A stretch of 61,199 bases of DNA, taken from the IMG/VR virus record IMGVR_UViG_3300038365_000169. One strand, given 5' to 3'. Made by a program: the position numbers and the translations under genes. Under the pieces are notes generated by a model. The model saw only the letters and a program-made list of their open reading frames with translations, did not search any database and was not told where the DNA came from. Below are positions 8,332-61,199 of the stretch, piece after piece (within the stretch, counting starts at the first letter, position 1; the number at the start of each line of letters is the position of its first letter). The DNA comes from an uncultured virus (IMG/VR IMGVR_UViG_3300038365_000169). Its lineage: Duplodnaviria; Heunggongvirae; Uroviricota; Caudoviricetes.

Positions 8332-8394
8332 CTTGGCTTACCTCTTTTCAACCTTGACCTTCATGTGAAGGTCGCCCTAAAGTTTATGGTTGGC

Positions 8395-8796
8395 CTATCT
8401 GTACTCTGGTTCCTCGGATGACTCGGTGTTGGCAATAATGCTCTTTGCAACTAAACCGGAGTTTACCTCCGAAACGTTCAACCGCTTGACAAACTCAAGC
8501 TTCTGAAGGTGGCTAAGAACAGATGCTTCCTCCTCCACCTTGCTGACATAAAGAATCTCAAACTTTTCTGGGCTTAGCATCTCCAGCTCATGCAGAAGGG
8601 CCTTTGGGTCCTCTACATCGGGTCCGGAGCGCATGCCGTATAGCTTGATTTGGAGCTTTTCTGCAAAATTGCAGGCGACCTGCTCCATCATTTCGCGCTT
8701 GAGCATCAAATTCTCGGGGCAGACAAAATAAAAAATTCTGTCCATCTCTTTGGAAATGGCAACCATTTCGGGGGTCATATTTTTATCGTCCATCAT
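8395..8796 (-). CDS. Hypothetical protein
   Basis: 133-aa ORF with ATGA overlap to upstream gene. Confidence 0.6.
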   Translation of the reverse strand: MMDDKNMTPEMVAISKEMDRIFYFVCPENLMLKREMMEQVACNFAEKLQIKLYGMRSGPDVEDPKALLHELEMLSPEKFEILYVSKVEEEASVLSHLQKLEFVKRLNVSEVNSGLVAKSIIANTESSEEPEYR

Positions 8797-9455
8797 ATTT
8801 CCTCTCCATCCTCATCCTTGTAGTATATGTCTATTGAGCTCTGAGCGATCTCAACTATGTCCCTATCCGCCAACATTTTAGCAAAGGTGGAAATCTCCCC
8901 TCTGTTTAGGTTGACGTCAAAATGCATGACAACAACCTTTTGGTCAAATTTTTTGACGCCATTTCCGCTGCGTATGCCAAAACGAACCTTGGCAAACCCA
9001 AAGTCTAGTATCTTGCTGGCAACCTTAATGTCGCCCTTTTTCTCGCTGTTAAGCGTTATGTCAACACGCACCTCATCTATGAATAGGTCGGTCCCCTCCA
9101 GTGCGTCCTGCCTGCCCGTTGGTCTTTTTATGGTGCCGTCGCCCCATTCCCTGTTGCAGGCGACCTCAAATCGCTCGCACATTTCGTCCTCAAATTGGTC
9201 CCCAAAGGACATTTTCTCGGATAAACGTTTCTTGAGCTGGCGGTACTCAATGTTTGCTGCATGGTTCCTGGTGGTCCTTGCTCTTTTGTCAGCTTTATAT
9301 CCTATGCGCTCGGCAAACTGTCCTTCGCTCTCATTGGCAACCTGATGGTCAACATGGTTGCATCGGCCCTTGCCGATTCTCTCCTCTGATGCGGTGCAGT
9401 AGGTGAGGTGGCCGTCCACAGTTAGGGCTAACCTTTTGCCCACTTTCACCACCAC
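8793..9455 (-). CDS. GKGRCxH-module protein with C-terminal PD-(D/E)XK-like domain
   Basis: N-term LALTVDGHLTYCTASEERIGKGRCNHVDH; C-term FEDEMCERF...EGTDLFIDEVRVDIT. Confidence 0.55.
   Translation of the reverse strand: MVVKVGKRLALTVDGHLTYCTASEERIGKGRCNHVDHQVANESEGQFAERIGYKADKRARTTRNHAANIEYRQLKKRLSEKMSFGDQFEDEMCERFEVACNREWGDGTIKRPTGRQDALEGTDLFIDEVRVDITLNSEKKGDIKVASKILDFGFAKVRFGIRSGNGVKKFDQKVVVMHFDVNLNRGEISTFAKMLADRDIVEIAQSSIDIYYKDEDGEEI
9352..9428 (-). repeat. 77-bp block identical, in inverted orientation, to 61108..61184
   Basis: Base-by-base comparison: reverse complement = gccctaactgtggacggcc...gatgcaaccatgt. Confidence 0.95.
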
Positions 9456-9479
9456 CTTAAGTTTAATTTATATGTTATA

Positions 9480-14191: not shown

Positions 14192-14212
14192 TTGCTTCTC
14201 ATCTCCTTATGT

Positions 14213-19940: not shown

Positions 19941-21581
19941 TTAAATCATAGGGTCAAAAGATTCCCCATTTTCCTCGACTTCAATCGGTAATAGCTGTGG
20001 AATGATGTCGAAGGCCATTACCATCCAGTAGGTTTTCCCCTCCTGAATCCAGCTGTTTTCGCCCAACCATCTGCCGTTATGCAGATTTATAGACTCCACC
20101 CATGCGCCAGATTCGGTCTGATATGCCTTGTCAAGAACGGCCTGACAGGTGACATTCTTCAATGACGTGATTCTTTCCTCTATGGACTTTACCGTAACAA
20201 GTACCCTCTCGGATAGCAGCTTGCAGGCAATCTGGTCCGCTGGATACTTTGGTATCACCAGCTTGGAGTTGTTGCTCTTGCTGTTCCTTATGTCCAGACC
20301 CTGCGTCTCCACAGTGCTGTTGGCGAGCTTGACCACCAAGCCATCAAGAGCATACTGGTGGAGATTCCTGTACCTGCTCTTGCTGCTCACCCTTTTGCCA
20401 TTAAGGTCGCATCCGTAGAACTCACAGACTTTCTCCAGCACTTCGATGGCATTTTTAGTCTTGCCGTAAAATTGTGTCGGCTTGTCGTCAAGACGCAGTA
20501 TGTCTCCAACGAAAATAACGCCAGGAATGTCACGAATTTTCTCGGTGTCCTTGTTTAGGCCGTTTACTGCGCAGCTGTAGCATACAACATCAAGCTCCTC
20601 GCCCTCGTCATAAAATCCGTGACTGTTGCCGTCTGCATGCCTTATCTCCACATATCCGTCCTCACGTATGGATAGCATGCTGGTGCGTAGGAACTTATGT
20701 TGGTCGTTTCCAAGTGATGCTATCAACCTGGCATTTTGCAGGTTGTTCTCCACGTACACCCTTCCGTTCATCTCGTCGGAGAAAAATCCCTCATTGTCCA
20801 CAAGCTGCCCTAAATCCTTTCCGTATAGGTACAAAAGAACTCCGTTTAAGTTTGCAGGGACCTTTCTGTTGAATATGCCGGAAACTACGCTGCGCCACAC
20901 AACCACCTCAGCAAGATCGTTCTGCTGCTCGCCCCTGTACTTCATTAAATTTTTCTCCGTCTTCTTGATCACACCCTCACCACGCAGCTCGAAGTACTCA
21001 GGAAGATCCCCACATATGCTCTCAACATAGCTGACATCAATAAACTCCGGTACGCCGTTTAAACGAACACCGGAAAGAGCATGCTCATGAAGCTTTAGGC
21101 CGTAGCGTCCGTTCCCCCTGCTGGTGATGCAGTCCTTTCTGTAGAATGAAACACCAAGACCCTCGTCACCGTCCAAAACATACCTTGTGTTGGCGGTTAA
21201 ACCGTCCAGCTTTGGTTCGTATAAAAGCTCTTCACCCTCATATTTGGTGCAAAAGACCTGAAGCTCCTCCAGATTGCCTGCTTTGTCTATGGATGGAAGT
21301 GGTGCAAGTAACCTGACCCAGGTGCGGCCGGATGGTGCAACCGATATCAGGCTTTCCTGATAGTTAAACTTTTTCTTGAGAATGTCCCATTCCTCGTCAG
21401 ATACCTTGGGGTATCCGTCAATGTAGGCACGCTCCAGGTTTTGCATCATGCGCAGCTGATCTTCGTTTCCTTTGAAGTCGCTCTGCTCCTCCAATGCGTA
21501 GGTTAGCTCGTTAAGCTCCGCGGTAACCCTCTCCAGCTCCTCATCAGTGCGTCTGTTGCCGTACTGTTTTTGTGTTTCCAT
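19941..21581 (-). CDS. NAD-dependent DNA ligase, minimal (adenylation plus OB domains)
   Basis: AYIDGYPKVSDEEWD, EPKLDG, SRGNG, ELRGE, LDGLVVK; no Zn/HhH/BRCT tail. Confidence 0.82.
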   Translation of the reverse strand: METQKQYGNRRTDEELERVTAELNELTYALEEQSDFKGNEDQLRMMQNLERAYIDGYPKVSDEEWDILKKKFNYQESLISVAPSGRTWVRLLAPLPSIDKAGNLEELQVFCTKYEGEELLYEPKLDGLTANTRYVLDGDEGLGVSFYRKDCITSRGNGRYGLKLHEHALSGVRLNGVPEFIDVSYVESICGDLPEYFELRGEGVIKKTEKNLMKYRGEQQNDLAEVVVWRSVVSGIFNRKVPANLNGVLLYLYGKDLGQLVDNEGFFSDEMNGRVYVENNLQNARLIASLGNDQHKFLRTSMLSIREDGYVEIRHADGNSHGFYDEGEELDVVCYSCAVNGLNKDTEKIRDIPGVIFVGDILRLDDKPTQFYGKTKNAIEVLEKVCEFYGCDLNGKRVSSKSRYRNLHQYALDGLVVKLANSTVETQGLDIRNSKSNNSKLVIPKYPADQIACKLLSERVLVTVKSIEERITSLKNVTCQAVLDKAYQTESGAWVESINLHNGRWLGENSWIQEGKTYWMVMAFDIIPQLLPIEVEENGESFDPMI

Positions 21582-21617: not shown

Positions 21618-22355
21618 CTATTTAACTCTAAGATACCTTTTGCCCGTCTCAGGCTCCATGTATGCCTCATATGATAAAATTTTGCTTCCAACGCTGTTTC
21701 TTGCTAGGGCTGTGCCAATCTTTCTGGCGACACCTGAATGAACAGAAACAACCATTGATGCGTTCTTGCAGTTAACCGCAACATATTCGATAAATGCGTC
21801 CACTGCCTCAGGATCCATCTCTGCATTGTCTATAATGATAGCGCATTTTTTGTCCTTATGTTCGTCCACAAACACCTTTGCAAGGTTGTAGTCGTCAAAA
21901 GATAGTATGTCCTGCGGAACCTCAAGAGGAGCGTTGCCATATGCAACACATGTGTCCACACCAGCTTCAATGAAGCGCCTGGCGATGCCTAATGCAACCG
22001 TTGTTTTCCCGGTGCCCGTTGACCCAACCAGAAGAACGCGCTTAGCCTCGCCATCGTCAACGGATTCAAGTAATGCGTTCAAAGATAGGCTGTCGCCATT
22101 TTCCATCTGCTTGACATACTTTTTTGATGACTTGAGAACGTTTACCATGTTCCTTAGTACCTCAAGTGTGATCTCGCGACCATTTTCTGCAATTCTTATG
22201 ATGGCAGCATCCCTGTCCTCATATGCAGACATGGACCCAAGATAAAATCTGTTCTCCCATTCATTGCTGACAAGAACTATTGCTCCCTCGTTAGCCTTTG
22301 ATGTGAAGGAGCTGTTGCTGGCTGACATCCATAGTTTTATGTTATTTTCCATCAT
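21618..22355 (-). CDS. P-loop NTPase fused to an N-terminal domain related to 14213..14629
   Basis: GSTGTGKTT Walker A, IIIDN Walker B. Confidence 0.65.
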   Translation of the reverse strand: MMENNIKLWMSASNSSFTSKANEGAIVLVSNEWENRFYLGSMSAYEDRDAAIIRIAENGREITLEVLRNMVNVLKSSKKYVKQMENGDSLSLNALLESVDDGEAKRVLLVGSTGTGKTTVALGIARRFIEAGVDTCVAYGNAPLEVPQDILSFDDYNLAKVFVDEHKDKKCAIIIDNAEMDPEAVDAFIEYVAVNCKNASMVVSVHSGVARKIGTALARNSVGSKILSYEAYMEPETGKRYLRVK

Positions 22356-23580: not shown

Positions 23581-24303
23581 CTAATACTCATTAATGGGTG
23601 TTAGTGACCCTACATCAGCCTTTAAGAGCACCTCAACTATGGCATTCATGTCCTCCTGTGATAGTGATATGCCGTAGTGCTGGCAGACAAGTAACCAGGT
23701 GTAGCAGTAGTCCTCTACATTTTTCTGCGGCAACCACTTGCTGGGAGGCTTTGCCCCCTTGGACCTGTTGTCGTACTGCGTGCAGCATACCCCATTCAAT
23801 GGGTCGTCTGCAAAGGCTCTTTTGTCCTCCTCTGTCCACTCCGCACCGCCATGCGAGTTGGCGTATGCCAAAGGAACAATATGGTCATAGTCAGTCTGCT
23901 TCACTGATTGAATTTTTTCGCCCGTGTATGGGTCCGTATACTCCATAGCATTCCAGTCATACCATTCGCTCTCATAGAAGCTGTAGGTTCGTATGCTGGT
24001 GTACTCGCCGTCACAGGGATGATTTTTGTTGCATGCATACCATTGGCTGCTGCTGATCCACTCCTTGCGGTCATAGTTTACACTCTCAGCCTCCCCAACC
24101 ATTACGGATTGAAGTAACGCATTTAGGCCCTCGTCATCAATTTGCCCCAGATGCTGGCCAACCTCAACAACTGCGGATTGGTTGAAATCACCCATATCAA
24201 GAATTTTATGGGCAATTTGGGGGTTTGTTAGCAATGCAACAGCTAGAGCAAGCAATATAATAGTGGCTATCTTGGGTCCGAGATATCTCTTAAGATTTTT
24301 CAT
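23581..24303 (-). CDS. Exported HNH nuclease (DUF1524-like)
   Basis: Signal/TM segment; DYDHIVPLAYA, FADDPLN, NRSKGAKPPSKWLP. Confidence 0.85.
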   Translation of the reverse strand: MKNLKRYLGPKIATIILLALAVALLTNPQIAHKILDMGDFNQSAVVEVGQHLGQIDDEGLNALLQSVMVGEAESVNYDRKEWISSSQWYACNKNHPCDGEYTSIRTYSFYESEWYDWNAMEYTDPYTGEKIQSVKQTDYDHIVPLAYANSHGGAEWTEEDKRAFADDPLNGVCCTQYDNRSKGAKPPSKWLPQKNVEDYCYTWLLVCQHYGISLSQEDMNAIVEVLLKADVGSLTPINEY

Positions 24304-26923: not shown

Positions 26924-27751
26924 TTACACCTCCATGCTGTCCGATATTAGCTTGCTTCTGTCCAGATCCTCGTCAAACTGTGCGTTGGAAAGATCCACCC
27001 CTCTGAAGTTGGTCTGGTTGAATTTGCAGCTTCTAAAGTTGCTGTTGTTTACCTGTGAGTCCTGAAAGTCCGTCCATTGAAGTGACGCTCCGTTGAAAAA
27101 TGCGGACCTAAAGTTGCACCTGTGGAACCTGATGCCGTCCAGCTCCATGCCGGAAAAATCGCTAGAGCCGAAATAGCACCCCACAAATTCTGTGTTGGGT
27201 ATGCTGCCACCTAGAACCCTGTCAAGCGATGTGTCATGAAACATCACGGAGATAAACCTTGCGTTGGATACCTTTGACTGCATGAACCTGTTCTGCTCAA
27301 ACTCGCAGTCCTTCATCACCGCTCCAACTAAATCGCTGCTTTGCATCACGCTCTGCATCAGTCGGACGCCCTCCATCTGTAAGCCTTGAAGCTCACATCC
27401 CATCCAATAGACCACATTCCACTTGCCGTGGTCGAAATGACTTTCGTTCATCTTGCATCCGTCAAAAGTGACCAAAGAGCCGTCACATCTTTGCCAGACG
27501 GTTCCCTCTAAATGAGCGCCCTCAAAGTTGCATCCGTCAAATGAGCACATAAGTAACGTGCTGTTCCGTAGGTCCGTTAGCTTGAACTTGCAGTTGTCAA
27601 AATCTACACTGTCAAACCTGCATGCGTTAAATGTGATGCGTGATAGGTCCATCTTGGACAGGGTGAAGCCCTCAAAGCTTTTGTCGCTTATGATGGGGTT
27701 GGAGCCGCTCTTGGCCTCCTCCACCAGCTGCAAAAACTGTTCCTTTCTCAT
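26924..27751 (-). CDS. Pentapeptide-repeat protein
   Basis: Continuous 5-residue F/L periodicity (FDNCK FKLTD LRNST...). Confidence 0.9.
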   Translation of the reverse strand: MRKEQFLQLVEEAKSGSNPIISDKSFEGFTLSKMDLSRITFNACRFDSVDFDNCKFKLTDLRNSTLLMCSFDGCNFEGAHLEGTVWQRCDGSLVTFDGCKMNESHFDHGKWNVVYWMGCELQGLQMEGVRLMQSVMQSSDLVGAVMKDCEFEQNRFMQSKVSNARFISVMFHDTSLDRVLGGSIPNTEFVGCYFGSSDFSGMELDGIRFHRCNFRSAFFNGASLQWTDFQDSQVNNSNFRSCKFNQTNFRGVDLSNAQFDEDLDRSKLISDSMEV

Positions 27752-27793: not shown

Positions 27794-28966
27794 CTACTGC
27801 AGGAGGGCCCAGTCTGGAATGTCCACTATTTTGCCCTCCTGTACAGCCTCGTATATCTTGCCCATGGTGAGTAGCATGGGTTGGCCGTTTATCTCGCACT
27901 GCATGATCTCGTCAAATTGAAAGCTTTGGTCCCCAATTTTGAACCACTCTACGTCCTTCTCTAGGTCATAAATGTCCTGCACGTCAGCTTGCTCCATAAA
28001 CTTGAACCTGTCCATCATTATGGACTGTGCCTGCCCAAGAAGCTCCTCAACGTCAGTCACGGTAAGTGCGACCTTATGCACCCCCTTAACCCTCTCCAGT
28101 CCGCCAAACTCCACCCGCTTTACGTCGCATAGAAGCCCCTGTATTCTGTCCGCAAACCTGGATATATGGCCTATGATGCCGTTTTCAACCACAGATTTGC
28201 CTGATCCTGTGCCGCCAGCCACTATCAGATGGGTGCTAACCAGTGTGTTGACCATCTCCTTGCGCTCCGTTTGGTTGTTTATCTTCCACCCTATGGGGCT
28301 AACAGTCTTTCTTTCGTTGTTAACTGCCTCCCCTAGAGGTATGATGTTCCATGATGTGTCGCTGCTTTTGTCAATGGAGCATCTTTTTGGTATGGCCTGC
28401 TTCTTGGCTATGTTGATGCTGACCGTGTAGCTGTCTATATCTATGTTGTCCAAATAGTAGGTGAAATGCTCACTTTTGTCCGAGATTTCCCTTACAAAGT
28501 CCATCACGTCATTTCTGCTCAAGCTCACGTCATAGTGTATGAACAGGTACTTACCCTTAAAGAAAATGTAGCTACATGACAACCTCTTCTTTGCCAGATC
28601 TCTAACCCACCTATCGAACATGGGAGGCTTCAACCCAACAATGTACACCAGCATCAGCAACGGACCAGTGGTCCAGCATGCCGTTCTGCAGATTCCAGAG
28701 AACGGGTTCAACATGCCCTTTATGGTTTCAAACAAGGGTATAACGCTGGTGCGGGAGAGCAACCTATAGGAGCCAGATGACATGAAGAGCAAGAACAGGC
28801 TGCCGAAAAACAGAATGGAAAGCGCAATGGCCAACCACTTCCAGATTGGGCTATTGGGAATCACTCTGACTTTTTGTTCCCCTATAACTATCTTCTTCCC
28901 CTCACGTTCACGCTTTGCCTCATCCGTTTGAGCTTTGCTTTGCTTGCCAAATAGTTCGTTTGCCAT
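27794..28966 (-). CDS. FtsK/TcpA-like ATPase, N-terminal half (TM + Walker A)
   Basis: 2 TM segments; HLIVAGGTGSGKS; CDVKRVEF; ends before Walker B. Confidence 0.8.
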   Translation of the reverse strand: MANELFGKQSKAQTDEAKREREGKKIVIGEQKVRVIPNSPIWKWLAIALSILFFGSLFLLFMSSGSYRLLSRTSVIPLFETIKGMLNPFSGICRTACWTTGPLLMLVYIVGLKPPMFDRWVRDLAKKRLSCSYIFFKGKYLFIHYDVSLSRNDVMDFVREISDKSEHFTYYLDNIDIDSYTVSINIAKKQAIPKRCSIDKSSDTSWNIIPLGEAVNNERKTVSPIGWKINNQTERKEMVNTLVSTHLIVAGGTGSGKSVVENGIIGHISRFADRIQGLLCDVKRVEFGGLERVKGVHKVALTVTDVEELLGQAQSIMMDRFKFMEQADVQDIYDLEKDVEWFKIGDQSFQFDEIMQCEINGQPMLLTMGKIYEAVQEGKIVDIPDWALLQ

Positions 28967-28978
28967 CTATATCACCCC

Positions 28979-29869
28979 TTATTCCACAATGTCATACCCT
29001 TCGTCCATCGAAGGTTGCTGATCCACAGGTATCTTCACATCCATATTTTTCTTGTTGAGCTTTAATTTGGTGACGGCAACCGGCTGCTCGTCCTGAACTT
29101 GACCGGACATCTTGATGTTAATTTTGCCCAACCTGACCTCAGGTACCCTTTCAACATTCTGCTCGACAAATGGTGCTAGGGTTTCCTCAACCTCTAGCTC
29201 CAAACCTCTTGCCTTTCTGGCCCTGTTCATGGCGGCTATTAGCTCGGCTCTTTCGTCAAGTGGCTCCTGAGGGAGCAGATGCTTGACCGCAGGTTTTTCC
29301 TCCAGTTGATACCCCTGCTCTAACTCTGCATGTTTGACCACCTGCTCCACCTGATGTTGCTTGAAATGCTCTACCTTGTCCTGTCGCTTTTGTTTGACCC
29401 TTTTGGCCTTTTTGCTGTTTGAACTGCTGTTTATTTTAACCTCGGTCTGGCCGCGTTCAAGAAAGTCCTTCTTTCTCTCCGTCCAGTATGCTTGAAACTC
29501 ATGTATGTCCTTGCCGCTCTTTAGAAAACCGCGCCCCTTTATCTCAGGCTTGGACAGACTGGACATGTCCTTCTCAAATAATAAGGAGCTTGCGCCAGCG
29601 TCAAAATCTCCCAAAAGACAGCTCATCTGTATGTTGTTCTTCAGGTCAGCATTTATGACGTTGGATGAGGGTCTTTGCGTTGCTAAGCATAAGGATACAC
29701 CTGCCGCTCGACCAAGCCTTGCTATGCTGCCAAGGGAGCTCTGTATGGAGTTAACAAGCTTGAAGTTTGAATCATTCATTACCTCTGAAAGTTCGTCCAC
29801 CAGCACAACAACCGCCTTGGGCCTGTAGGCTGCCACATGCTTGCTGATGCTGTCCTTGGATATTCGCAC
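28979..29869 (-). CDS. FtsK/TcpA-like ATPase, C-terminal half (Walker B onward)
   Basis: VVVLVDEL, IARLGRAAGVSLCLATQRP, KGRG; disordered tail. Confidence 0.82.
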   Translation of the reverse strand: MRISKDSISKHVAAYRPKAVVVLVDELSEVMNDSNFKLVNSIQSSLGSIARLGRAAGVSLCLATQRPSSNVINADLKNNIQMSCLLGDFDAGASSLLFEKDMSSLSKPEIKGRGFLKSGKDIHEFQAYWTERKKDFLERGQTEVKINSSSNSKKAKRVKQKRQDKVEHFKQHQVEQVVKHAELEQGYQLEEKPAVKHLLPQEPLDERAELIAAMNRARKARGLELEVEETLAPFVEQNVERVPEVRLGKINIKMSGQVQDEQPVAVTKLKLNKKNMDVKIPVDQQPSMDEGYDIVE

Positions 29870-29878
29870 GCCCTCACC

Positions 29879-30097
29879 TCACTTTACCCATAGTTCGTTA
29901 ATTTGGTTGTTATTGTTCGTTATATAGTCCGTTATCTCCCTTACCTGATCCTTTATGGCGTCCATCAATGGGCTGCTAGCTATGGCAAATATGGTTACGG
30001 CAAAAATGACCAAAATAATGAGAAATTCGAATGCTATTGCACCCTCATGCTGTTCGTTTAACTTGCCCTTAATCTTGGCTAAATCTAAGGGTTTCAT
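29879..30097 (-). CDS. Flp/type IVb pilin-like protein
   Basis: HEG/AIAFEFLIILVIFAV prepilin motif (Glu+5). Confidence 0.65.
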   Translation of the reverse strand: MKPLDLAKIKGKLNEQHEGAIAFEFLIILVIFAVTIFAIASSPLMDAIKDQVREITDYITNNNNQINELWVK

Positions 30098-30109: not shown

Positions 30110-31612
30110 CTATACCTCACCCTCAGACCTTTGCTCCAAGATGCTGAGCAGGCCGAAAAGTGAGTCCTTGGTCGGCAGTATCGCAACCGTCTCCCTATGG
30201 CGGGGTAACCGGGTGTTAACCTCCAAGTTGGCGTCAATGGAGCGGTCCACTACAGGAATGATGGATTCGCTGTTGAAGCCATAGAAGGAGCATGCGTCCC
30301 CGTCATGGTCAGCATTGTATGCCTTGCAGTAAAGTGGATGGATCTCAGCAGAAGCTCCCTTGCTGACCCTAGGTATGAAGCTTTGAAATGAGCTTTGGTG
30401 CAACGATGGCTGCCTGTTCATGGCAACCCTAAGATGGCCAATTCTGCGCTCTAAATCCTTTCTGGCTGGCTCGGTTACTTGATTTTGAGGTACCCTGAAC
30501 TGCTCCATCCATTGGTCTATCTGCTCCATGCTTCTTCCCTCCGCGGAAAGCTGCTTTAATATGGTGGGTCGGTATATGTCAACCGCCATGGATGGTGGAA
30601 TGGCAACCTCTCCAAACTTTAGGTCCGCGTTAGGTGTGATGACAGCTCGTCCGCTGTAGGGGATGCTGGACCCGGACAGTACAGCCCTAAATACGCCGCC
30701 CTTACCGGCAAATTCGTCCGCTAATGACATGTTTCTGTATCCGTTGCTGAACCTGGCATAGTTGTCGCCAAGCTTGGCGTTGTTTAAAAGTGCGTCATAT
30801 GCTAGCTGCTGTCGGTCTGGATTGGCATGCTGCCTGAGCATATACTTATAGCCAACGGTGATGTCACTGGAGACCACATCCTCACGTTCGCCAATAGGGC
30901 TGCCATCCCCAGCAGAGCTGTCAACCTCCGTGTGGTCAGAAATGCCCATTCTCATGTAGTATGGAAGAACATATACATGCTTGGTTGCCTCAAAGTTGAA
31001 CTTTTCATGCGCAAACCTGTTCATGGCAACCACACCAGTTTCAACCTTTACTGACTCCTCCCAGCCCTCTGGATAGCCGTCACGTTCGTATTCCTCTATC
31101 TTTTCCTTGCTGAAAGCTCTGCCAACCTTGAATCGATTTAAGTTGCTCTCCGTTACTAAAAATACGTCCCCATGAAGCATGCCGTTTATGGTCTTGTATG
31201 GCATGCCGGATAGCTGGCTGAAGTAGTTTTTGTCCATGTCATTCCACAAAGGTTCCTCCAGCTCCATGTATCCGCCATCCATATTTTGGTCCAGCTGCAT
31301 GCGGTTTTCAATCTTAACAAGATCCTTGAGCTCCTCGTCACTCATCCTGTATGGTTTGCTCTCTATGGTGGTTCCCTCATAGGGTATGAATCCGTCAACA
31401 TCAACCGCATCATCACCAGGTAGGTTGCTGGATAACCTCTCCTGCAGAAGCTCAACCCTGCTCACAAACTCCTGAGGCGTTTCCCCCTCATATTGGTGCT
31501 CAATATGATTGCAACGACCCTTACCGCGAAGTTCGGGTGGGCAAGTGCAATAGGTCATATTGCCGTTTACATTTAGGGCTAGAACCTTTGTTACCCTTGT
31601 GGCTGCGCCCAT
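30110..31612 (-). CDS. RNA polymerase beta-prime (RpoC)-like catalytic fragment with N-terminal GKGRCxH module
   Basis: GKGGVFR..LSG....YSGRAVI, NRQPSLH, IHPLYCKAYNADHDGD (30296-30316); ends about 60 aa after the motif. Confidence 0.88.
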   Translation of the reverse strand: MGAATRVTKVLALNVNGNMTYCTCPPELRGKGRCNHIEHQYEGETPQEFVSRVELLQERLSSNLPGDDAVDVDGFIPYEGTTIESKPYRMSDEELKDLVKIENRMQLDQNMDGGYMELEEPLWNDMDKNYFSQLSGMPYKTINGMLHGDVFLVTESNLNRFKVGRAFSKEKIEEYERDGYPEGWEESVKVETGVVAMNRFAHEKFNFEATKHVYVLPYYMRMGISDHTEVDSSAGDGSPIGEREDVVSSDITVGYKYMLRQHANPDRQQLAYDALLNNAKLGDNYARFSNGYRNMSLADEFAGKGGVFRAVLSGSSIPYSGRAVITPNADLKFGEVAIPPSMAVDIYRPTILKQLSAEGRSMEQIDQWMEQFRVPQNQVTEPARKDLERRIGHLRVAMNRQPSLHQSSFQSFIPRVSKGASAEIHPLYCKAYNADHDGDACSFYGFNSESIIPVVDRSIDANLEVNTRLPRHRETVAILPTKDSLFGLLSILEQRSEGEV

Positions 31613-31695
31613 TGCTCAACCCCCTTTCAGATGCAAATGCATTGTTATTTACACATTATGACGATGCTATTATATATCTATTAGGATACATTATA

Positions 31696-34032
31696 TTATT
31701 TGACGATTTCGAATAAATCGTCATCATTTGCGACAGGTTTGGAGTATACTGAGTTAAGGGTGGTGGTGTCACCAACTATCATTATGCCCTTGTCATCATC
31801 CACTCGACCCTCATCCTTGACCAACGGTAGGTCCGGTTCAAGCTCTAAAATTTCCTCCATTGAAAGTATGGCGTCAGGACCGGCATAGTTGGGTGCGAAG
31901 AAGTCTGGAACCTCCGGAAGAACCGCTGTGCCAATCTTCTCCTTCTCGATGAGGTCACCATGTAGGCCCTGCAGCTGCATCTCGCTGTGCAAGAAACGTG
32001 CAGAGTCATTTAATCTGATCTCTTTGCCGCCTATTTTGACCATTTCTCCCTCTACCCTTGATACCTCACGACGTACGCCAGCTAACCCGTAGTCAGCCTT
32101 TACCCCCTTTGCCATGTATTCAGGAAGCATGTCGTCATACCTTTCAAACGATAGGTTCTTTAGTTGGTTCTGTTTCAATACCTTGCCCTTTTTGACCATC
32201 TTTAGCATTTTCTTGCCAAGGCCAGCTTGGTCCAAAACATCCATTGAATCCGCCCATAAAAGCTTCCAAAGGTCCTTTTTGCCGTAGTTTACCAAAAGTG
32301 ATAATGTGTAGTCAGAATGGTCAGGCACCTGGGTGCCGCTGCTGTCACACATGGCAATCTGGCTGACGTCTGCAGGCACGGGGCCAACTGCAACCCTAAA
32401 GTCTATGTTATCACGCAGTGAGAGGGGAAATGTCTTGCCGCTTACCTTTAAGCTGGAGAACACCACATGCACGTTAACAGACTTGCCATACTTGGTGATG
32501 GTCTCCATGGCAATTTTGATTTCATTGACCATTACGCCCTTGCTTACGCTGCCTCCAACTATGCCCTGCATTTCGTCATCATCAACAGCTGCTTTTTCGT
32601 CCGTTTCAATTAGCTTTTCGTAGTCCGTTACAACAAAAACAACGGGAGGCAGGCTCATCTCCCCGCCTAACTGTATTACATTCTGGGTGGCAATCTCCCA
32701 GTGGTTGGGTATGCGAAAACGCTTGTCACCCTCAAGTACGACCTCCATGCCGGGTTGGATGTCCTGTGCAACTATGTCCTTTTCGTCGCCAGCAATTCTG
32801 ACGTGAACACGTTCATTTGCGCCCAGTATGTGGTTGTTTAATGCCACCCGTGTGCCAAGGTTTATTACACCGGACAGCGGCAGGGACTGTATGTTTAGCT
32901 TCTTTAATGCATTATACCTTTGGGTCATCATGTATAGCAAACGCTTTACAACCTCATATGATTCTGAGACATTCCTTGCAATGTACTTTATCTGTGGTGC
33001 AGATTCCAATGCGTCAAACTGTGGGTTCTGATTCTGGTTGTCAATATATACTTCCACCCCGCCCTTCATGACCATGTGCCCAATGATGGACTTGAGTATG
33101 CTGTTCCTCTGGTCTTCATTCTGACCGACCACCATGGCCATTGATGCGGACTTGTTGGCCCTGATAAATTCATTTGACTGAAGTTCCTTTGTGCGGAGCA
33201 GGTCTGAAAATGTCATGTCATGACTTGGCTTGAGGTACTTGGGGTCCTTGACAGCTTTTTTGTTCCTTTTGAGTGCAAGGTCAAACGTTTGCTCCTCAAA
33301 TTGGGGCGTCTCATGCAGCTTAAGAACGTACATGCTGTTGGTCTTTGATGCCAAAGTTACGTCGCTTATAACACCAAGAGGTACCACATACCATGGAAGG
33401 AAATTAGAGATGCCAAGCAGTGACTTCCACTCCACATGCTCGTCAAAATGTAAGCATGCAGTTAAGGTATACCATTTGCCGTCCCTCATGCCGTCCCATA
33501 GATACTCAGGAAATGCATTCTCTAAAGATTCAATTAGGACCTCATATTGCTGCCTGTTGGCAGTGGCAGACATGCGAAATCGAAAAACATGCATTAGAAC
33601 AGGCACGATCTTTCCTGACTTTCTTAGCGGTGATAAGCTGTGCACCACCGGTCGTCTTTCCTTTTTGTCAGGAGAAACCTCATTGTTGCCAGAACCGTTG
33701 AATACCTCACGAAATGCAACCATTTCGTCTGGAATGTTCATAAGGGTTACTCCAGCTTCATATATGATCCCCTTTACCTTGGATATATGCCCCCTTTGGT
33801 ATACTAGATAGCTGACAGCCATAAACATCCAGTTCAGAGCATGAACCATCAGAAGTACATAAAGATGCACGGGAATGAATAGGGTTGCCACCGCTAGGGC
33901 AACCGTTACACCAAAGAAAATCCAATGCATTCTTACGTTTCGCTTGACATAGAGCTTGTTCTCTAGCATGAAGCGATATATTACGGCGACCATCAGCGTG
34001 GCCACAACCAGGGCAATGTTTATAGCGTTCAT
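31696..34032 (-). CDS. FtsK/TcpA-like membrane protein with degenerate ATPase motifs
   Basis: 3 TM segments; Walker A position reads GQNEDQRNS; VVFVVTDYE; KYGKSVNVHVV; LRDNIDFRVAVG. Confidence 0.65.
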   Translation of the reverse strand: MNAINIALVVATLMVAVIYRFMLENKLYVKRNVRMHWIFFGVTVALAVATLFIPVHLYVLLMVHALNWMFMAVSYLVYQRGHISKVKGIIYEAGVTLMNIPDEMVAFREVFNGSGNNEVSPDKKERRPVVHSLSPLRKSGKIVPVLMHVFRFRMSATANRQQYEVLIESLENAFPEYLWDGMRDGKWYTLTACLHFDEHVEWKSLLGISNFLPWYVVPLGVISDVTLASKTNSMYVLKLHETPQFEEQTFDLALKRNKKAVKDPKYLKPSHDMTFSDLLRTKELQSNEFIRANKSASMAMVVGQNEDQRNSILKSIIGHMVMKGGVEVYIDNQNQNPQFDALESAPQIKYIARNVSESYEVVKRLLYMMTQRYNALKKLNIQSLPLSGVINLGTRVALNNHILGANERVHVRIAGDEKDIVAQDIQPGMEVVLEGDKRFRIPNHWEIATQNVIQLGGEMSLPPVVFVVTDYEKLIETDEKAAVDDDEMQGIVGGSVSKGVMVNEIKIAMETITKYGKSVNVHVVFSSLKVSGKTFPLSLRDNIDFRVAVGPVPADVSQIAMCDSSGTQVPDHSDYTLSLLVNYGKKDLWKLLWADSMDVLDQAGLGKKMLKMVKKGKVLKQNQLKNLSFERYDDMLPEYMAKGVKADYGLAGVRREVSRVEGEMVKIGGKEIRLNDSARFLHSEMQLQGLHGDLIEKEKIGTAVLPEVPDFFAPNYAGPDAILSMEEILELEPDLPLVKDEGRVDDDKGIMIVGDTTTLNSVYSKPVANDDDLFEIVK

Positions 34033-40087: not shown

Positions 40088-41071
40088 TTAAAGCACCCCT
40101 TTGATGATCCAGCTGTTCCCGCTCTTCTCTATGAGCAGGTACTTGTCGGTGGTGTATGTCATTCCACCGCTTGTTTTGACATTTATGGTGGCTTTTGCGT
40201 TGTATCCGTTCTGGTTTGTTTCGTTGTACATGGCAAAATCTATCATGTTGATGTAGGAAAGGTTTCCTGGGTCAAGTGCCTCCCCGTCATAGTATGGGCT
40301 GACATTCTTGCCGGTGTATAAAAATGTGAAAAAGTTGTCCACAAATGTTTTGCACTTGGACATGTCAGCTTCGTTTATCTTTGATGCTGTCTCTGACCAA
40401 ACGAACATCGGATTCTCCACTATCTCCAGATTTCCGTCCACAGACTTGGATGGTGTGAAAATTACGCTTCCTGCCATGGTGTACTCCCAGTCAGCTCCGC
40501 TCCAATGAAGTGGTATCATGCAGTCCACACGGTCAGAACCCTTGTTGGTTTCCACCGTTATGTAAAAATACACATTTGCGATGGCGTTGCTTTTGGTGGA
40601 TATCTTGGTTAAAACAGGATTTTCGACCACAATTTCGTTTACCCCTGATGATGCAACCAACTTGGATGAAATCAATGCAGGCATGTTGGTGGTTAAATAG
40701 CCCTGAACACCGTCAATGGGAAAGTTTGTCCTGTTGTTATAACGGTTCGCTATGAATGCAATCTCCTCATAGGTGAGCTCATGCTTTAAAAAGGTGTTAT
40801 AAACTCCAAATAGCAGCAAAGATGCGATTAAAAGAACTAAGGACCAGAACGCCATGTTCTTCTTGAACCTTAGCTGTTTGTACCTCTTGGCCGCTGCAAC
40901 CATCTGTTCCTCGCTCATGCTGGCATCTATGGCAGAGTCAGCCATGTCCTGAATGAAGTCCTCATGGAGGCGATCTCTGGCTCTTTCAATTTCGTTTCTG
41001 CGCTGAATCACCAGCCGCTGGCCGTCCTCCTCCTCGCGCTTAGCGCTCTTTTCGCCCAATTTTAAGGCCAT
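40088..41071 (-). CDS. TcpC/VirB8-like transfer protein
   Basis: Single TM; TFVDNFFTFLY; C-terminal LLIEKSGNSWII. Confidence 0.6.
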   Translation of the reverse strand: MALKLGEKSAKREEEDGQRLVIQRRNEIERARDRLHEDFIQDMADSAIDASMSEEQMVAAAKRYKQLRFKKNMAFWSLVLLIASLLLFGVYNTFLKHELTYEEIAFIANRYNNRTNFPIDGVQGYLTTNMPALISSKLVASSGVNEIVVENPVLTKISTKSNAIANVYFYITVETNKGSDRVDCMIPLHWSGADWEYTMAGSVIFTPSKSVDGNLEIVENPMFVWSETASKINEADMSKCKTFVDNFFTFLYTGKNVSPYYDGEALDPGNLSYINMIDFAMYNETNQNGYNAKATINVKTSGGMTYTTDKYLLIEKSGNSWIIKGVL

Positions 41072-41107: not shown

Positions 41108-42241
41108 TTATTGTATTTTCTTTCTCTTCCTGAGCAAGGGGTTGCTGGTCACGTCTGACCCAAACAGGGAGGTTACCCTGAAGAATCCGGACCTTTGATT
41201 GCTGTCAATGTAGAAGCATTCACCCTGAATGGGGTTCCCTTGCTCGTTTAACTTGCCGCCAAACTGTGTGATGCTGTTTACTATGCTTCTTATGTCCGCA
41301 CTGCCGTCTGAGTCGCTGCTGTAAAACATCCTTAGAAACTCCTCTGCATCGTTCTTTGAGCTCTTGAAGCAGAACTTGCTGCTGACAAACTGCGCTATTG
41401 TGGGCGGGTAGTGGTGAACACTCTGTGATGCAAGAAGGGTTGGTACGTTCAGTGAACGGCCAAGTACCATAAATTCGTCAATTACCTGCGAAAAGTCTGG
41501 ATTCTGGAATGCTATATGCGCTTCGTCCATTACGAACAATGTGGGATAACCATGATCCTTTAAAAGCTCCCTTAGCATCTTGCACACTATAAAAACAATG
41601 CCAGAGTTGAACATCTGCTCCTCCGTTAGCTTTTTGGCATTCTTGGGCAGGTCCATCCCGTGCAGGCTGATGATCTTGCTCTTCTGGGTGAACACCGTTG
41701 GGCTGACATACTCGTCGTCATCAAATATGAGGCTGCCGTACTCACTGTCACGGTGTATGGAAAGCTTGGTGCCAATGGCTTGTGCGTCAAGATTGTCATT
41801 TGCGTACAAATAATCCGTTAGGGCTGCAAATGAGGTTGGAGCCTTGCTGCGTCGATGACGTATTACAAAGTCATTTATGATGGGGGTGATGCTTACCTTC
41901 TGCTGGTCCGTCAACCCACCGCATATGATGCTTACCACAGATGTGATGACATTGGTGTCCACCACCTTTAGCACCCTGAATGGGTTTAAAGACCCCGGAA
42001 GAATGTTGTTAATGTCTATATACTCAATTTTGTCCGGATATATCTCCGCCAGTATGCCAAGATCGTCCTTTGGGTCTATGGCATAGATTCTTTGCTCCAT
42101 CATGAGTGCGTTGGCGCATATGTTTAGGACAAAAAATGTCTTGCCTGCACCGGGTTGGCCGATTATGATCGTGGTGGCAGCCTTGTTCTCAAAAATGGCT
42201 GTAAATGGGCTGTACTGTATGCTGGTCGCCATGGCAACCAC
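41108..42241 (-). CDS. VirB4/TcpF-like ATPase domain (C-terminal part; start probably 42232)
   Basis: GQPGAGKT, IDPKDD, LNPF, FVMDEAH, GRSLNV..LLASQ. Confidence 0.82.
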   Translation of the reverse strand: MVAMATSIQYSPFTAIFENKAATTIIIGQPGAGKTFFVLNICANALMMEQRIYAIDPKDDLGILAEIYPDKIEYIDINNILPGSLNPFRVLKVVDTNVITSVVSIICGGLTDQQKVSITPIINDFVIRHRRSKAPTSFAALTDYLYANDNLDAQAIGTKLSIHRDSEYGSLIFDDDEYVSPTVFTQKSKIISLHGMDLPKNAKKLTEEQMFNSGIVFIVCKMLRELLKDHGYPTLFVMDEAHIAFQNPDFSQVIDEFMVLGRSLNVPTLLASQSVHHYPPTIAQFVSSKFCFKSSKNDAEEFLRMFYSSDSDGSADIRSIVNSITQFGGKLNEQGNPIQGECFYIDSNQRSGFFRVTSLFGSDVTSNPLLRKRKKIQ

Positions 42242-42287
42242 CTCCTTTCATGCTTTCCTCTTTAGGCCCTGCCGATGGACTAATTCT

Positions 42288-52365: not shown

Positions 52366-52656
52366 TTAGCCCTCCATGTTAAGGAAGTTTACAATCCTTT
52401 CCACCTGCTCGTCCTTCAACTTGCCAAGATTGCTGAAAAACTCCATAATGGTTTCCTTCTGGGACTGTATGGTGATGCTGGACGGCTGGTTTTCAATCTG
52501 TACCTCGTACATGCCGCGCTGCAGCTTCCTTAGCTCCATGGCTGAGCCGCCCTCGTCCCCAAGAATATGGCAGCACCTTCCCTTGCCAACAAGTTCGTCA
52601 GGGGAGGAGCACTCGCTGTATCCTCCGTCCTTTCTGGGTCTGATCATGGTGGTCAT
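52366..52656 (-). CDS. Small protein carrying the GKGRCxH module
   Basis: DGGYSECSSPDELVGKGRCCH; GGAGG RBS. Confidence 0.7.
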   Translation of the reverse strand: MTTMIRPRKDGGYSECSSPDELVGKGRCCHILGDEGGSAMELRKLQRGMYEVQIENQPSSITIQSQKETIMEFFSNLGKLKDEQVERIVNFLNMEG

Positions 52657-55990: not shown

Positions 55991-56022
55991 TGGAGCCTGA
56001 AGATTTACGTCTTCACGCTCCA
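55991..56022. terminator. Stem-loop, probable terminator
   Basis: tggagc-c-tgaaga / tcttca-c-gctcca inverted repeat after the stop at 56057. Confidence 0.45.
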
Positions 56023-56056
56023 ATGCCTATTTTTGGCGCTTTAATGCCCATTAGCG

Positions 56057-56742: not shown

Positions 56743-56856
56743 GCTTGGTTTCCCTCCCTTTCTGAGGCATTATTTTAATGCTACCAATTTTGTCTCCATA
56801 TGGCCATGAATCTGGGATTCATAACTATTATATAGTAAAGCCTCTAATGCGGCCTA

Positions 56857-61080: not shown

Positions 61081-61199
61081 GTGGTGGGCAATCTGGAGAA
61101 GCGTCTTGCCCTAACTGTGGACGGCCACCTCACCTACTGCACCGCATCAGAGGAGAGAATCGGCAAGGGCCGATGCAACCATGTCACCCATCAAAGGGA
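61081..61199 (+). CDS. Start of another GKGRCxH-module protein, 3' truncated by window (start codon uncertain)
   Basis: Reads VVGNLEKRLALTVDGHLTYCTASEERIGKGRCNHVTHQR. Confidence 0.75.
   Translation, partial: MVGNLEKRLALTVDGHLTYCTASEERIGKGRCNHVTHQR
61108..61184 (+). repeat. 77-bp block identical, in inverted orientation, to 9352..9428
   Basis: Direct base-by-base comparison. Confidence 0.95.

What the first reader, a model, noticed from the sequence alone, without database searches (positions are those of the whole stretch)
30110..31612. Stand-alone RNA polymerase beta-prime catalytic fragment (NADHDGD) within the transfer region
Seen: the C-terminal half matches RpoC conserved regions C-D (GKGGVFR, YSGRAVI, NRQPSLH, IHPLYCKAYNADHDGD). 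All three Mg-binding Asp are intact, with F->H in the usual NADFDGD. The protein stops about 60 aa later, its N-terminal half is non-canonical and starts with the GKGRCxH module, and no rpoB is adjacent. Known: split multi-subunit RNAPs occur in jumbo phages; they are not a standard feature of conjugative elements. Inference: the element has its own fragmented RNAP, or a repurposed double-psi-barrel enzyme or decoy. It appears co-transcribed with a pilin and the split FtsK genes.
Basis: partly seen in the sequence, partly recalled or inferred. Interest (0 to 1): 0.82.

Follow-up and report, generated by a model that had tools for sequence, protein, structure and literature searches.

The report
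Mobile element's own split RNA polymerase
This gene encodes the catalytic front third of a shrunken, bacterial-type RNA polymerase that a large transfer-capable mobile element carries for itself, a kind of enzyme so far described in giant phages and yeast killer plasmids.

Summary
ORF 30110-31612 (-) encodes 500 aa. Residues 84-500 are a reduced RNA polymerase beta-prime N-terminal part (clamp plus catalytic double-psi barrel), with NADHDGD at 433-439.

It belongs to a metagenome-only family of about 90 protein clusters, and DxDGD is present in 98 of 98 members examined. It is not a decoy or a gene remnant. Two partner families exist:
- a beta-like protein of about 700-790 aa;
- a beta-prime C-part with the bridge helix and trigger loop, often interrupted or split by inteins.

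Both partner families share contigs with the beta-prime N-part family. The window's own element (a 123,228-base contig) carries a beta-like gene outside the window, inferred from matching contig records. Its beta-prime C-part was not found.

All three subunit families begin with the same roughly 45-aa Cys/Cys/His/His zinc module. This module heads four ORFs in the window, and its role is unknown.

The surrounding genes are a Gram-positive-type conjugation cluster plus replication and recombination genes. No phage structural genes were found in the window.

My reading is that this is one subunit of an element-encoded minimal multisubunit RNA polymerase. I found no description of the family in the literature searched, and no relative in the plasmid or phage collections searched. 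I class it as a new variant of a known kind.

The parts
30110..31612 (-). Gene for the beta-prime N-part subunit (500 aa, P0001) of an element-encoded minimal multisubunit RNA polymerase
   Evidence: ORF. Pfam PF00623 E 3.3e-19. PDB beta-prime E about 1e-25. AF2 model mean pLDDT 83.8. Foldseek best match is the cyanobacterial gamma subunit 9dvs_D, E 6e-23. VIA-align Z 20.
31427..31588 (-). N-terminal Cys/Cys/His/His zinc module (residues 9-62): three short strands plus a helix
   Evidence: C22, G30, C34, H36 and H39 are invariant in 52 of 52 module-bearing sequences from all the families. pLDDT is 88-92. No structural relative was found: best Z 3.0 and no Foldseek E<=0.001. The SWIM-finger link is a lead only (Atlas score 0.88).
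31364..31426 (-). Low-confidence acidic linker (residues 63-83) between the module and the beta-prime body
   Evidence: pLDDT is 51-56 for residues 61-80. The structural alignment to beta-prime begins at residue 84.
30113..31363 (-). Beta-prime-homologous body (residues 84-500): reduced clamp region plus catalytic double-psi beta-barrel. It lacks the canonical four-Cys zinc-binding domain.
   Evidence: VIA-align puts model 84-500 on E. coli beta-prime 21-549 and cyanobacterial gamma 12-556. The only Cys residues are 22, 24, 34, 429 and 441.
30296..30316 (-). NADHDGD, the Mg-binding aspartate triad (D435, D437, D439)
   Evidence: Position. D435, D437, G438 and D439 are invariant in 49 of 49 sequences. 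DxDGD is present in 98 of 98 family members; the middle residue is F in 62, H in 19, Y in 4 and other in 13.
31620..31628 (-). Shine-Dalgarno-like GAAAGGGGG upstream of the ATG, inside an 83-nt AT-rich gap (31613-31695, GC 0.31)
   Evidence: Read from the sequence. Gap composition.
8793..9455 (-). Second module-bearing ORF (220 aa, P0113): the zinc module plus an uncharacterised C-terminal domain
   Evidence: Translation. Profile hits on the module only, E 1e-17 to 1e-18. No Pfam, PHROG or NCBIfam family. Atlas leads to restriction-endonuclease families at 0.91.
52366..52656 (-). Third, degenerate module-bearing ORF (96 aa)
   Evidence: Translation. Module profile E 5e-7 to 1e-4.
61081..61199 (+). 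Fourth module-bearing ORF. Only its first 39 codons lie in the window, and its 5' end is an inverted copy of that of 8793-9455.
   Evidence: ORF open at the 3' end. Inverted repeat 9343-9458 / 61078-61193, 88%. Module profile E about 1e-14.
27794..30097 (-). Downstream genes on the same strand, separated by 9-12 nt gaps: a 72-aa pilin-like ORF (29879-30097) and two FtsK/SpoIIIE pieces (28979-29869 and 27794-28966)
   Evidence: ORFs. Pfam and PHROG FtsK hits. No terminator-like site on the minus strand in this stretch. The pilin reading rests on my own reading of the G/AIAFEF motif.
31696..34032 (-). Upstream 778-aa membrane protein of the transfer cluster, with no family match
   Evidence: ORF. 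No Pfam hit at E<=0.1, and no PHROG (E<=1e-5) or NCBIfam (E<=0.001) hit.

Best explanation
P0001 is the N-terminal catalytic subunit (clamp plus Mg-binding double-psi barrel) of a minimal, bacterial-type multisubunit RNA polymerase encoded by the mobile element itself.

The enzyme is built from three polypeptides:
- this beta-prime N-part;
- a beta-like subunit of about 700-790 aa that supplies the second barrel with its lysines;
- a beta-prime C-part that supplies the bridge helix, trigger loop and second zinc site.

The split in beta-prime falls close to the natural rpoC1/rpoC2 split of cyanobacteria and plastids. Each subunit carries the same tethered N-terminal zinc module in place of the lost canonical beta-prime zinc-binding domain.

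Shown: homology, fold, strict conservation of the catalytic residues, and co-occurrence of the three families.

Inferred: that the three assemble; that the enzyme transcribes element genes independently of the host polymerase and sigma factors; and that the module serves DNA targeting, assembly or delivery.
For: Identity and fold.

Purifying selection:
- DxDGD is present in 98 of 98 members.
- K304, R322, R400 and P402 are invariant in 49 of 49 sequences.

Partner families:
- Beta-like family: 65 clusters. It matches Thermus beta in four colinear segments, E 4e-26. K596, K604 and R642 are invariant in 31 of 31.
- Beta-prime C family: 56 clusters. Its profile matches beta-prime bridge helix, trigger loop and region H, E 9e-21. 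The bridge-helix PGY.AR.L.Y motif, trigger-loop M283 and H287, and four Cys are invariant in 20 of 20.
- A fused 874-aa relative (P0123) carries module, barrel, bridge helix and trigger loop in one chain. It matches C. difficile beta-prime in four colinear segments, E 1e-31.

Co-occurrence:
- 16 contig lengths are shared between families.
- L005 holds the beta-prime N-part and all three pieces of the C-part within 21.6 kb.
- The window's exact protein and beta-like P0279 have identical contig records, longest 123,228. Their near-identical variants P0002 and P0369 both have longest contig 123,431.

Not a recent copy of a host gene:
- In a 30-row tree of the barrel region, the 17 family rows form one clade (100/99), outside a clade of 7 bacterial beta-primes that includes the Enterococcus and Listeria rows.
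- PDB scores are flat across bacterial phyla, at 79-93 bits.
Against: - Only this one subunit lies in the window.
- The beta-like gene of this element is inferred from matching contig records, not seen in sequence.
- No beta-prime C-part cluster carries this element's contig length. That search covered 401-1278 aa only, so split pieces such as those of L005 would be missed.
- No sigma-like or alpha-like protein was recognised among the 61-62 window ORFs scanned.
- No conserved upstream motif other than ribosome-binding sites was found in 29 intergenic regions.
- There is no expression or activity data.
- NCBIfam scores lie far below the rpoC cut-offs: 100 bits against 963.
Confidence: 0.8

Rival explanations
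1. The enzyme is real, but its job is priming or establishment rather than general transcription. It would synthesise RNA on the transferred single strand in the recipient, priming complementary-strand synthesis or making the first transcripts. This is the role that transferred primases play for other plasmids.
For: - In the window the gene sits inside the transfer cluster.
- In relatives L001-L003 it follows DNA polymerase III alpha and RadA-like genes.
- No primase was recognised among the window ORFs scanned.
- Passages of PMC5512222 say that conjugative primases are transferred with the DNA.
Against: - The clamp, bridge helix, trigger loop and region H, which are features of processive transcription, are conserved.
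- Only about half of the element was seen, so a primase may lie elsewhere.
- No evidence bears on the template used.
Confidence: 0.12
2. The element is a phage or phage-plasmid rather than a conjugative element. The polymerase would then be a relative of the split jumbo-phage polymerases, used in an infection cycle.
For: - The Atlas cluster that holds this protein is labelled Viruses 92%, with phylum known for only 13 of 296 members.
- PHROG 2987 ('RNA polymerase beta subunit') matches at E 6e-24.
- The element carries its own RecA/UvsX-like, SSB, ligase-like and clamp-loader-like genes.
- Vibrio phage 150E35-1 has a separate CDS spanning 1,341 nt annotated as putative beta-prime.
Against: - The window holds a VirB4 C-half, TcpC, TcpE, a PilT/TraJ-type ATPase and FtsK-type pieces.
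- Of 62 ORFs, none hit a PHROG head, tail or portal family. The single exception is a terminase-labelled family on the VirB4-like ATPase.
- No relative turned up in four IMG/VR scans or in 50,697 phage records.
- The two Vibrio phage rows group with bacterial beta-prime (80/84), outside the family clade.
Confidence: 0.12
3. The protein is a decoy or a repurposed barrel. It would act without partners of its own, for example by pairing with host beta or by sequestering host factors.
For: It stands alone in the 61-kb window. It carries F to H in the motif.
Against: - Dedicated beta-like and beta-prime C partners share the module and co-occur with it.
- The whole catalytic triad and the NTP and RNA-contact residues are invariant.
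- H at that position is a common family variant, in 19 of 98 members.
Confidence: 0.04

Closest known systems
Cyanobacterial and plastid split beta-prime (gamma/RpoC1 plus RpoC2)
   Same: Beta-prime is divided after the catalytic barrel into an N-part and a C-part. The best structural matches of the model are gamma chains: 9dvs_D with Foldseek E 6e-23 and VIA-align Z 20.0, model 84-500 on chain 12-556. The beta-prime C profile's best PDB hit is cyanobacterial RpoC2.
   Different: - NCBIfam rpoC1_cyan scores 78.5 bits against a cut-off of 975.9.
- The body is about 110 residues shorter over the aligned span.
- The four-Cys zinc-binding domain is missing.
- An N-terminal zinc module has been added.
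- It is encoded by a mobile element.
- The family forms its own clade.
Split multisubunit RNA polymerases of jumbo phages (phiKZ, AR9)
   Same: Beta and beta-prime homologues are cut into several polypeptides, encoded by a large mobile genome, and no alpha or sigma was recognised. I saw only search listings and abstracts of PMC7598289, PMC4666361 and PMC5449584. PHROG 2987 matches at E 6e-24.
   Different: - The context is a conjugation cluster with no virion genes in the window.
- Beta-like P0279 scores 4e-26 against bacterial beta but 2.6e-12 against chain 7s00_C. That this chain is the AR9 enzyme is recalled.
- All subunits share an N-terminal zinc module.
- No phiKZ or AR9 sequence was put in the tree.
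RNA polymerase of yeast cytoplasmic killer plasmids (virus-like elements)
   Same: It is a strongly reduced two-barrel polymerase encoded by a plasmid-like element for its own transcription. I saw only the abstract of PMC6211774.
   Different: It has a eukaryotic host and linear plasmids, and its subunit layout differs (a beta/beta-prime fusion; recalled). No sequence comparison was made here.
YonO and related single-chain two-barrel polymerases of prophages
   Same: It is a mobile-element-encoded member of the two-barrel superfamily that works without host subunits. I saw passages of PMC7824862.
   Different: YonO has both barrels in one chain and belongs to the RdRP-like branch, which lacks the flap insert (passages). 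Here the barrels lie on separate beta-like and beta-prime-like chains that are clearly of the bacterial beta/beta-prime type.
Proteins delivered with the DNA (phage N4 virion RNAP; plasmid primases TraC1 and Sog)
   Same: They are possible functional analogues if the polymerase is carried into the recipient. I saw passages of PMC5512222.
   Different: These are unrelated folds. That paper reports N4-like polymerases only in phages and names no multisubunit-type polymerase in conjugative elements, in the passages I saw. Delivery is untested here.

Membership tests
Two-barrel (multisubunit-type) RNA polymerase superfamily | Double-psi beta-barrel carrying the DxDGD metal-binding triad | tested here: met
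   PF00623 scores 70.2 bits against a cut-off of 25.3. D435, D437 and D439 are present and conserved in 98 of 98 members.
Two-barrel (multisubunit-type) RNA polymerase superfamily | A second barrel with conserved basic residues, supplied by a beta-type partner | tested here: met
   Beta-like P0279 matches PF00562 and PF04565. It matches bacterial beta at E 4e-26. K596, K604 and R642 are invariant in 31 of 31. That it lies on the same contig as the window is inferred from identical contig records, not seen in sequence.
Bacterial RpoC (full-length beta-prime, TIGR02386) | Score above the curated equivalog cut-off, with all beta-prime domains in one chain | tested here: not met
   100.3 bits against a cut-off of 963.5. 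The protein ends at the position equivalent to E. coli residue 549. Bridge helix and trigger loop lie on a separate family.
Bacterial RpoC (full-length beta-prime, TIGR02386) | Canonical four-Cys zinc-binding domain in the N-terminal clamp (recalled feature) | tested here: not met
   There is no Cys between residues 35 and 428, although residues 84-500 align to beta-prime 21-549.
Cyanobacterial gamma (RpoC1, TIGR02387 / NF002729) | Score above the curated cut-off | tested here: not met
   78.5 bits against 975.9, and 81.0 against 1117. The fold likeness is high (Z 20.0), so it works like a gamma subunit but is not a member.
Jumbo-phage split RNAP beta-prime N piece (PHROG 2987) | Profile match | tested here: met
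   E 6.4e-24, residues 273-449 on profile positions 250-432 of 478. The score is no better than against cellular beta-prime.
Jumbo-phage split RNAP beta-prime N piece (PHROG 2987) | Phage genome context (virion genes) | tested here: not met
   None of the 62 window ORFs hit a head, tail or portal PHROG, apart from a terminase-labelled family on the VirB4-like ATPase. Only about half of the element was seen.
YonO-like single-chain polymerases | Both barrels in one polypeptide | tested here: not met
   Only the beta-prime-type barrel is present in P0001. The beta-type barrel is on a separate family.
SWIM zinc finger (PF04434), for the N-terminal module | CxCxnCxH signature (recalled) and a profile match | tested here: inconclusive
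   - The window copy reads C22-x-C24-x9-C34-x-H36.
- C24 is not conserved, whereas H39 is invariant.
- There is no Pfam SWIM hit at E<=1.
- The Atlas feature search puts SWIM-containing clusters first at 0.88. SWIM is on 19-28% of the members of two clusters and is not common in the third; a score under 0.9 is a lead only.
- No structural match: best Z 3.0.
Gram-positive (Tcp/Tn916-type) conjugation system, for the context | VirB4-type ATPase, TcpC, TcpE and an FtsK-type translocase | tested here: met
   AAA_10 E 4e-31, TcpC E 5e-7, TcpE E 5e-4 (below its Pfam cut-off), and FtsK_SpoIIIE on three ORFs. VirB4_CagE E 1.3e-12.
Gram-positive (Tcp/Tn916-type) conjugation system, for the context | Relaxase and origin of transfer | tested here: inconclusive
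   No relaxase family hit among the window ORFs scanned. The rest of the element was not available.

The most novel reading that the evidence does not exclude
Every subunit of the element's minimal RNA polymerase begins with the same zinc module. The same module also heads a nuclease-like protein and other small proteins of the element. The boldest reading not excluded is that the module is a delivery or assembly tag, which lets the conjugation machinery carry a ready-made polymerase (and other effectors) into the recipient together with the DNA. That would be the conjugative counterpart of the virion RNA polymerases that phages inject, and it would make the incoming element independent of the new host's transcription machinery.
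Probability: 0.15. Interest if true: 0.9.

Novelty: new variant of a known kind. Interest (0 to 1): 0.8.

Why it matters
Multisubunit-type RNA polymerases encoded by mobile DNA have been described for jumbo phages, some prophages and yeast killer plasmids. In the literature I searched, none is described for conjugative elements, which are taken to rely on the host enzyme.

An element-encoded polymerase inside a transfer-capable element of Bacillota would bear on two questions: how such elements express genes in a new host, and how they might escape host silencing or rifamycins.

The enzyme is also one of the smallest beta/beta-prime sets seen, about 1,650-1,700 aa in all. It therefore shows which parts of the bacterial enzyme are dispensable.

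[quoted passage not shown] Some of these are split between distant genes, which would make an essential active-site element depend on protein splicing.

Tried and rejected
**The rest of the window's replicon.** No genome is held for the window. The metagenome scan returned six other loci, not the window's contig. Metagenome records cannot be searched by handle. The beta-like gene is therefore inferred from contig records only, and the beta-prime C-part is not located.

**Collections with no relative of the family.**
- GTDB species genomes, two scans.
- IMG/VR, four scans.
- PLSDB: only chromosomal-type rpoC or rpoB hits.
- INPHARED phages: only rpoC-type or distant hits for the N-part, none for the C-part.

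**Promoter search.**
- An 8-mer count over 29 upstream regions gave only ribosome-binding-site words.
- Sigma-70-like sites were not enriched: 10 found against 12.1 expected.

**The zinc module.**
- Fold search: best VIA-align Z 3.0 against 48,161 chains, and no Foldseek match at E<=0.001. The fold is not placed.
- Complex prediction of the beta-prime N and beta-like modules with zinc: no verdict, score 0.46 against a control at 0.63.

**Expression.** No RNA holder is listed among the sequencing runs. The DNA is held by runs labelled fermentation metagenome or metagenome in 3 studies, two of which may be the source.

**Earlier notes of this scan.** Nothing for this genome or sequence.

**Literature.**
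- Six searches found no description of this family.
- The YonO hits in Clostridium perfringens papers were the author name Yonogi.
- Papers outside the library (for example subscription journals) and supplements were not seen.

**Rejected readings.**
- Pseudogene or rpoC fragment: the frame is intact, and there are 98 conserved homologues.
- Recent capture of host rpoC: rejected by the tree.
- The module as the displaced beta-prime zinc-binding domain in its normal place: it lies before the residue that aligns to beta-prime residue 21.
Full report
**1. The observation.** ORF 30110-31612 on the minus strand encodes 500 aa. It is preceded by a GAAAGGGGG ribosome-binding site in an 83-nt AT-rich gap. 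The protein ends 61 aa after the last aspartate. The similarity is not chance:
- Pfam RNA_pol_Rpb1_2, E 3.3e-19, above its gathering score.
- Bacterial beta-prime chains in the PDB, E 2e-25 to 6e-22, over residues 269-497 (E. coli chain 300-510).
- NCBIfam rpoC_TIGR, E 6.6e-29, but far below the equivalog cut-off.

**2. The N-terminal half.** An AlphaFold2 model built on a 49-sequence family alignment has mean pLDDT 83.8.
- Foldseek's best matches are the cyanobacterial gamma subunit, the natural N-terminal half of a split beta-prime (9dvs_D, E 6e-23, about 441 aligned columns).
- VIA-align gives Z 20.0 (rmsd 5.4, 383 aligned) for model 84-500 on gamma 12-556. It gives Z 19.9 for model 84-500 on E. 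coli beta-prime 21-549.

So residues 84-500 are a shortened but canonical beta-prime N-terminal third: the clamp region plus the catalytic barrel. The protein has no Cys between residues 35 and 428, so the usual four-Cys zinc-binding domain of beta-prime (recalled feature) has been lost. Residues 1-83 are an addition, made of a small module (three strands and a helix, pLDDT about 90) and a low-confidence acidic linker.

**3. A conserved family.** The word-indexed search found 88 clusters of mostly 447-564 aa with E 8e-56 or better. All were metagenomic apart from a few NCBI fragments, and none had an informative name. The exhaustive search found 26 representatives at E<=1e-30, then a drop to ordinary beta-prime at about 1e-22.
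- In the 49-sequence alignment, D435, D437, G438, D439, K304, R322, R400 and P402 are invariant.
- DxDGD is present in 98 of 98 family sequences examined. The residue between the first two aspartates is F in 62, H in 19, Y in 4 and other in 13.

The window's H is therefore an ordinary family variant, and selection on the triad is not relaxed.

**4. The partners.** Two hits shared only the first roughly 45 residues with the query.
- *P0094 (729 aa)* carries RNA_pol_Rpb2_3 and Rpb2_6. Its family has 65 clusters of mostly about 700-790 aa. The member P0279 matches Thermus beta in four colinear segments (E 4e-26), including the fork region and the barrel motif GDKLSNRHGGKS. K596, K604 and R642 are invariant in 31 of 31.
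- *P0092 (730 aa)* belongs to a family of 56 clusters. A profile of 20 intein-free members (417-445 aa) matches beta-prime at E 9e-21 in three colinear segments: bridge helix, trigger loop and region H. The bridge-helix motif, trigger-loop M283 and H287, and four Cys are invariant.
- *P0123 (874 aa)*, a more distant relative, has module, barrel, bridge helix and trigger loop in a single chain. The split is therefore a variant of a mini-beta-prime.

**5. Co-occurrence.** The protein tables give each cluster's longest contig. Sixteen contig lengths are shared by at least two of the three families, and three (144,417; 134,871; 97,918) by all three. Beta-like and C-part share contigs as short as 9.1 kb, so those two genes lie close together. 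The N-part shares only contigs of 77 kb or more with either.

For the window itself, the exact sequence P0001 is on 3 contigs (longest 123,228; JGI, Logan, ENA). Beta-like P0279 has the same record. Their near-identical variants P0002 and P0369 both have longest contig 123,431. I take this to mean that the window's element carries a beta-like gene outside the window. This is an inference from records, not from sequence.

No C-part cluster carries either length, but that search was limited to 401-1278 aa. Inside the window, tblastn and profile HMMs against all 738 six-frame ORFs found no beta-like or C-part body.

**6. Inteins in relatives.** C-part lengths fall into classes: about 420-445 aa, about 575 aa and about 730 aa. 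P0092 has two Hint-like inserts, placed exactly in the bridge helix (…PGY|C…HN|TARKLF…) and after the trigger-loop histidine (…ELKH|…HN|TG…).

In locus L005 the same protein is encoded by three separate ORFs, at 8293-8988, 13607-14326 and 2537-3496. Their ends look like a short N-intein piece and a long C-intein piece. That points to trans-splicing, which was not tested. P0409 and P0430 are similar partial forms.

**7. The shared module.** A back-translated pattern for GKGRCNH occurs 4 times in the window against 0.12 expected; none of 100 shuffles reached 4. The four ORFs are:
- the beta-prime N-part;
- 8793-9455 (220 aa);
- 52366-52656 (96 aa, degenerate);
- an ORF starting at 61081 that runs off the window.

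A C-x(9-13)-C-x-H-xx-H pattern is found in 95 of 98 N-part, 65 of 65 beta-like and 55 of 56 C-part sequences. C22, G30, C34, H36 and H39 are invariant in 52 of 52 sequences across all the families.

The module folds confidently alone (pLDDT 85) but has no convincing structural relative. A language-model search places small, mostly viral, SWIM-finger-containing clusters nearest, at 0.88, which is a lead only. The window copy fits the recalled SWIM CxCxnCxH signature, but its second Cys is not conserved.

The C-terminal domain of the 220-aa protein has leads to restriction-endonuclease families at 0.91. A complex prediction of two modules gave no verdict. DNA targeting, subunit assembly and delivery all remain open.

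**8. Context.** Nearly all genes lie on the minus strand. The window holds the following:
- a VirB4-type ATPase whose C-half is a separate ORF (41108-42241);
- TcpC (40088-41071) and TcpE (43570-44022);
- a PilT/TraJ-type ATPase (49035-50138);
- three FtsK/SpoIIIE pieces;
- RecA (16129-17208) and SSB;
- a ligase-like protein and a ParB-like protein.

Of 62 ORFs, none hit a phage head, tail or portal family, except for a terminase-labelled PHROG on the VirB4-like ATPase. Ribosome-binding words such as AGGAGGTG dominate the upstream regions, and one beta-like member comes from an Enterococcus sp. isolate. Both point to Bacillota hosts.

Against a conjugative reading, the Atlas labels the N-part cluster as mostly viral on few records, and only about half of the element was seen. 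The gene's place in the transfer cluster is not conserved. In L001-L003 it follows DNA polymerase III alpha and RadA-like genes, and in L005 it lies among C-part pieces and sortase/pilin genes.

**9. Origin.** In a maximum-likelihood tree of the barrel region (30 rows, 182 columns), the 17 family rows form one clade (100/99). They lie on a long branch outside a clade of 7 bacterial beta-primes (99/98) that includes the Enterococcus and Listeria rows. They are also separate from 2 Vibrio phage rows and 4 archaeal rows. The tree is unrooted and small, and it lacks phiKZ and AR9. Sequence scores favour the bacterial type over the archaeal type. The gene is not a recent copy of a host rpoC.

**10. 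Mechanism and rivals.** The most likely reading (0.8) is that P0001 is one of three subunits of an element-encoded minimal RNA polymerase. That this enzyme transcribes element genes independently of the host is inferred. The rivals are:
- a priming or establishment role (0.12);
- a phage rather than conjugative context (0.12; this does not change what the protein is);
- a decoy (0.04).

**11. Novelty.** Six literature searches found no description of this family. Passages of a survey of proteins delivered by phages and conjugative elements mention only N4-type polymerases, and those only in phages (PMC5512222). The family is absent from PLSDB and INPHARED. It is a new variant of a known kind, the split multisubunit-type polymerases of mobile DNA. 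Its distinguishing features are its context, its small size, the shared zinc module and the inteins in the active-site elements.

Noticed in passing
window 9343-9458 and 61078-61193: A 116-nt inverted repeat, 88% complementary, formed by the 5' ends (zinc-module codons) of two oppositely oriented paralogous genes 51.6 kb apart. It is the only long repeat in the window.
   Followed up: partly
window 54791-55786 (-): This 331-aa ORF starts with a Hint/intein-C-like segment similar to the inteins of the polymerase C-part, ending ...LMHHN|S. It continues as an FtsK/SpoIIIE piece that seems to begin just after the P-loop. It looks like one half of a split-intein gene.
   Followed up: partly
window 27794-29869 (-): The two adjacent FtsK pieces are in permuted order. 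The upstream ORF (28979-29869) matches the later part of the FtsK profile (PHROG 1358 positions 694-874). The downstream ORF (27794-28966, with membrane segments and GGTGSGKS) matches the earlier part (positions 572-698).
   Followed up: no
window 41108-43586 (-): The VirB4-type ATPase appears divided. ORF 41108-42241 aligns only to the C-terminal half of VirB4 models (positions 415-679 of 792). The preceding 432-aa ORF (42288-43586) has no strong family match.
   Followed up: no
L005 2537-3496, 8293-8988, 13607-14326: In a relative, the beta-prime C-part is encoded as three dispersed genes. [quoted passage not shown]
   Followed up: partly
P0123 (874 aa, protein collection): This is a single-chain mini-beta-prime with the zinc module, the barrel (NADFDGD), an intact bridge helix and a trigger loop. 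It may represent the unsplit form of the family.
   Followed up: partly
L004 54-1286 (P0090): On a 1.5-kb contig, the first roughly 212 residues of a beta-prime N-part are fused to an NlpC/P60 domain. This may be a real recombinant or an assembly chimera.
   Followed up: no
window 8793-9455 (-): This is a 220-aa protein with the zinc module and a C-terminal domain. The only leads for that domain are restriction-endonuclease families (RE_TaqI, RE_MjaI), at language-model score 0.91.
   Followed up: partly
window 1323-27751: This is a block of DNA-metabolism genes unusual for a plasmid:
- Ogt-like methyltransferase (1323-1841)
- ParB-like (5467-6399)
- HD hydrolase (11366-11965)
- three GNAT-like ORFs
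- RecA (16129-17208)
- SSB (17251-17616)
- LigA-like (19941-21581)
- AAA/clamp-loader-like (21618-22355)
- HNH/GmrSD-like (23581-24303)
- pentapeptide-repeat protein (26924-27751)
   Followed up: no
window 56000-60042: GC rises to 0.52-0.54 here against about 0.47 elsewhere. The stretch 58099-60042 held no ORF in my gene list.
   Followed up: no
L013 (Vibrio phage 150E35-1, record 58344-59684): A 161-kb phage carries a separate CDS spanning 1,341 nt annotated as putative beta-prime. It matches P0001 residues 190-435 at 29% identity, and it groups with bacterial beta-prime, outside this family.
   Followed up: partly
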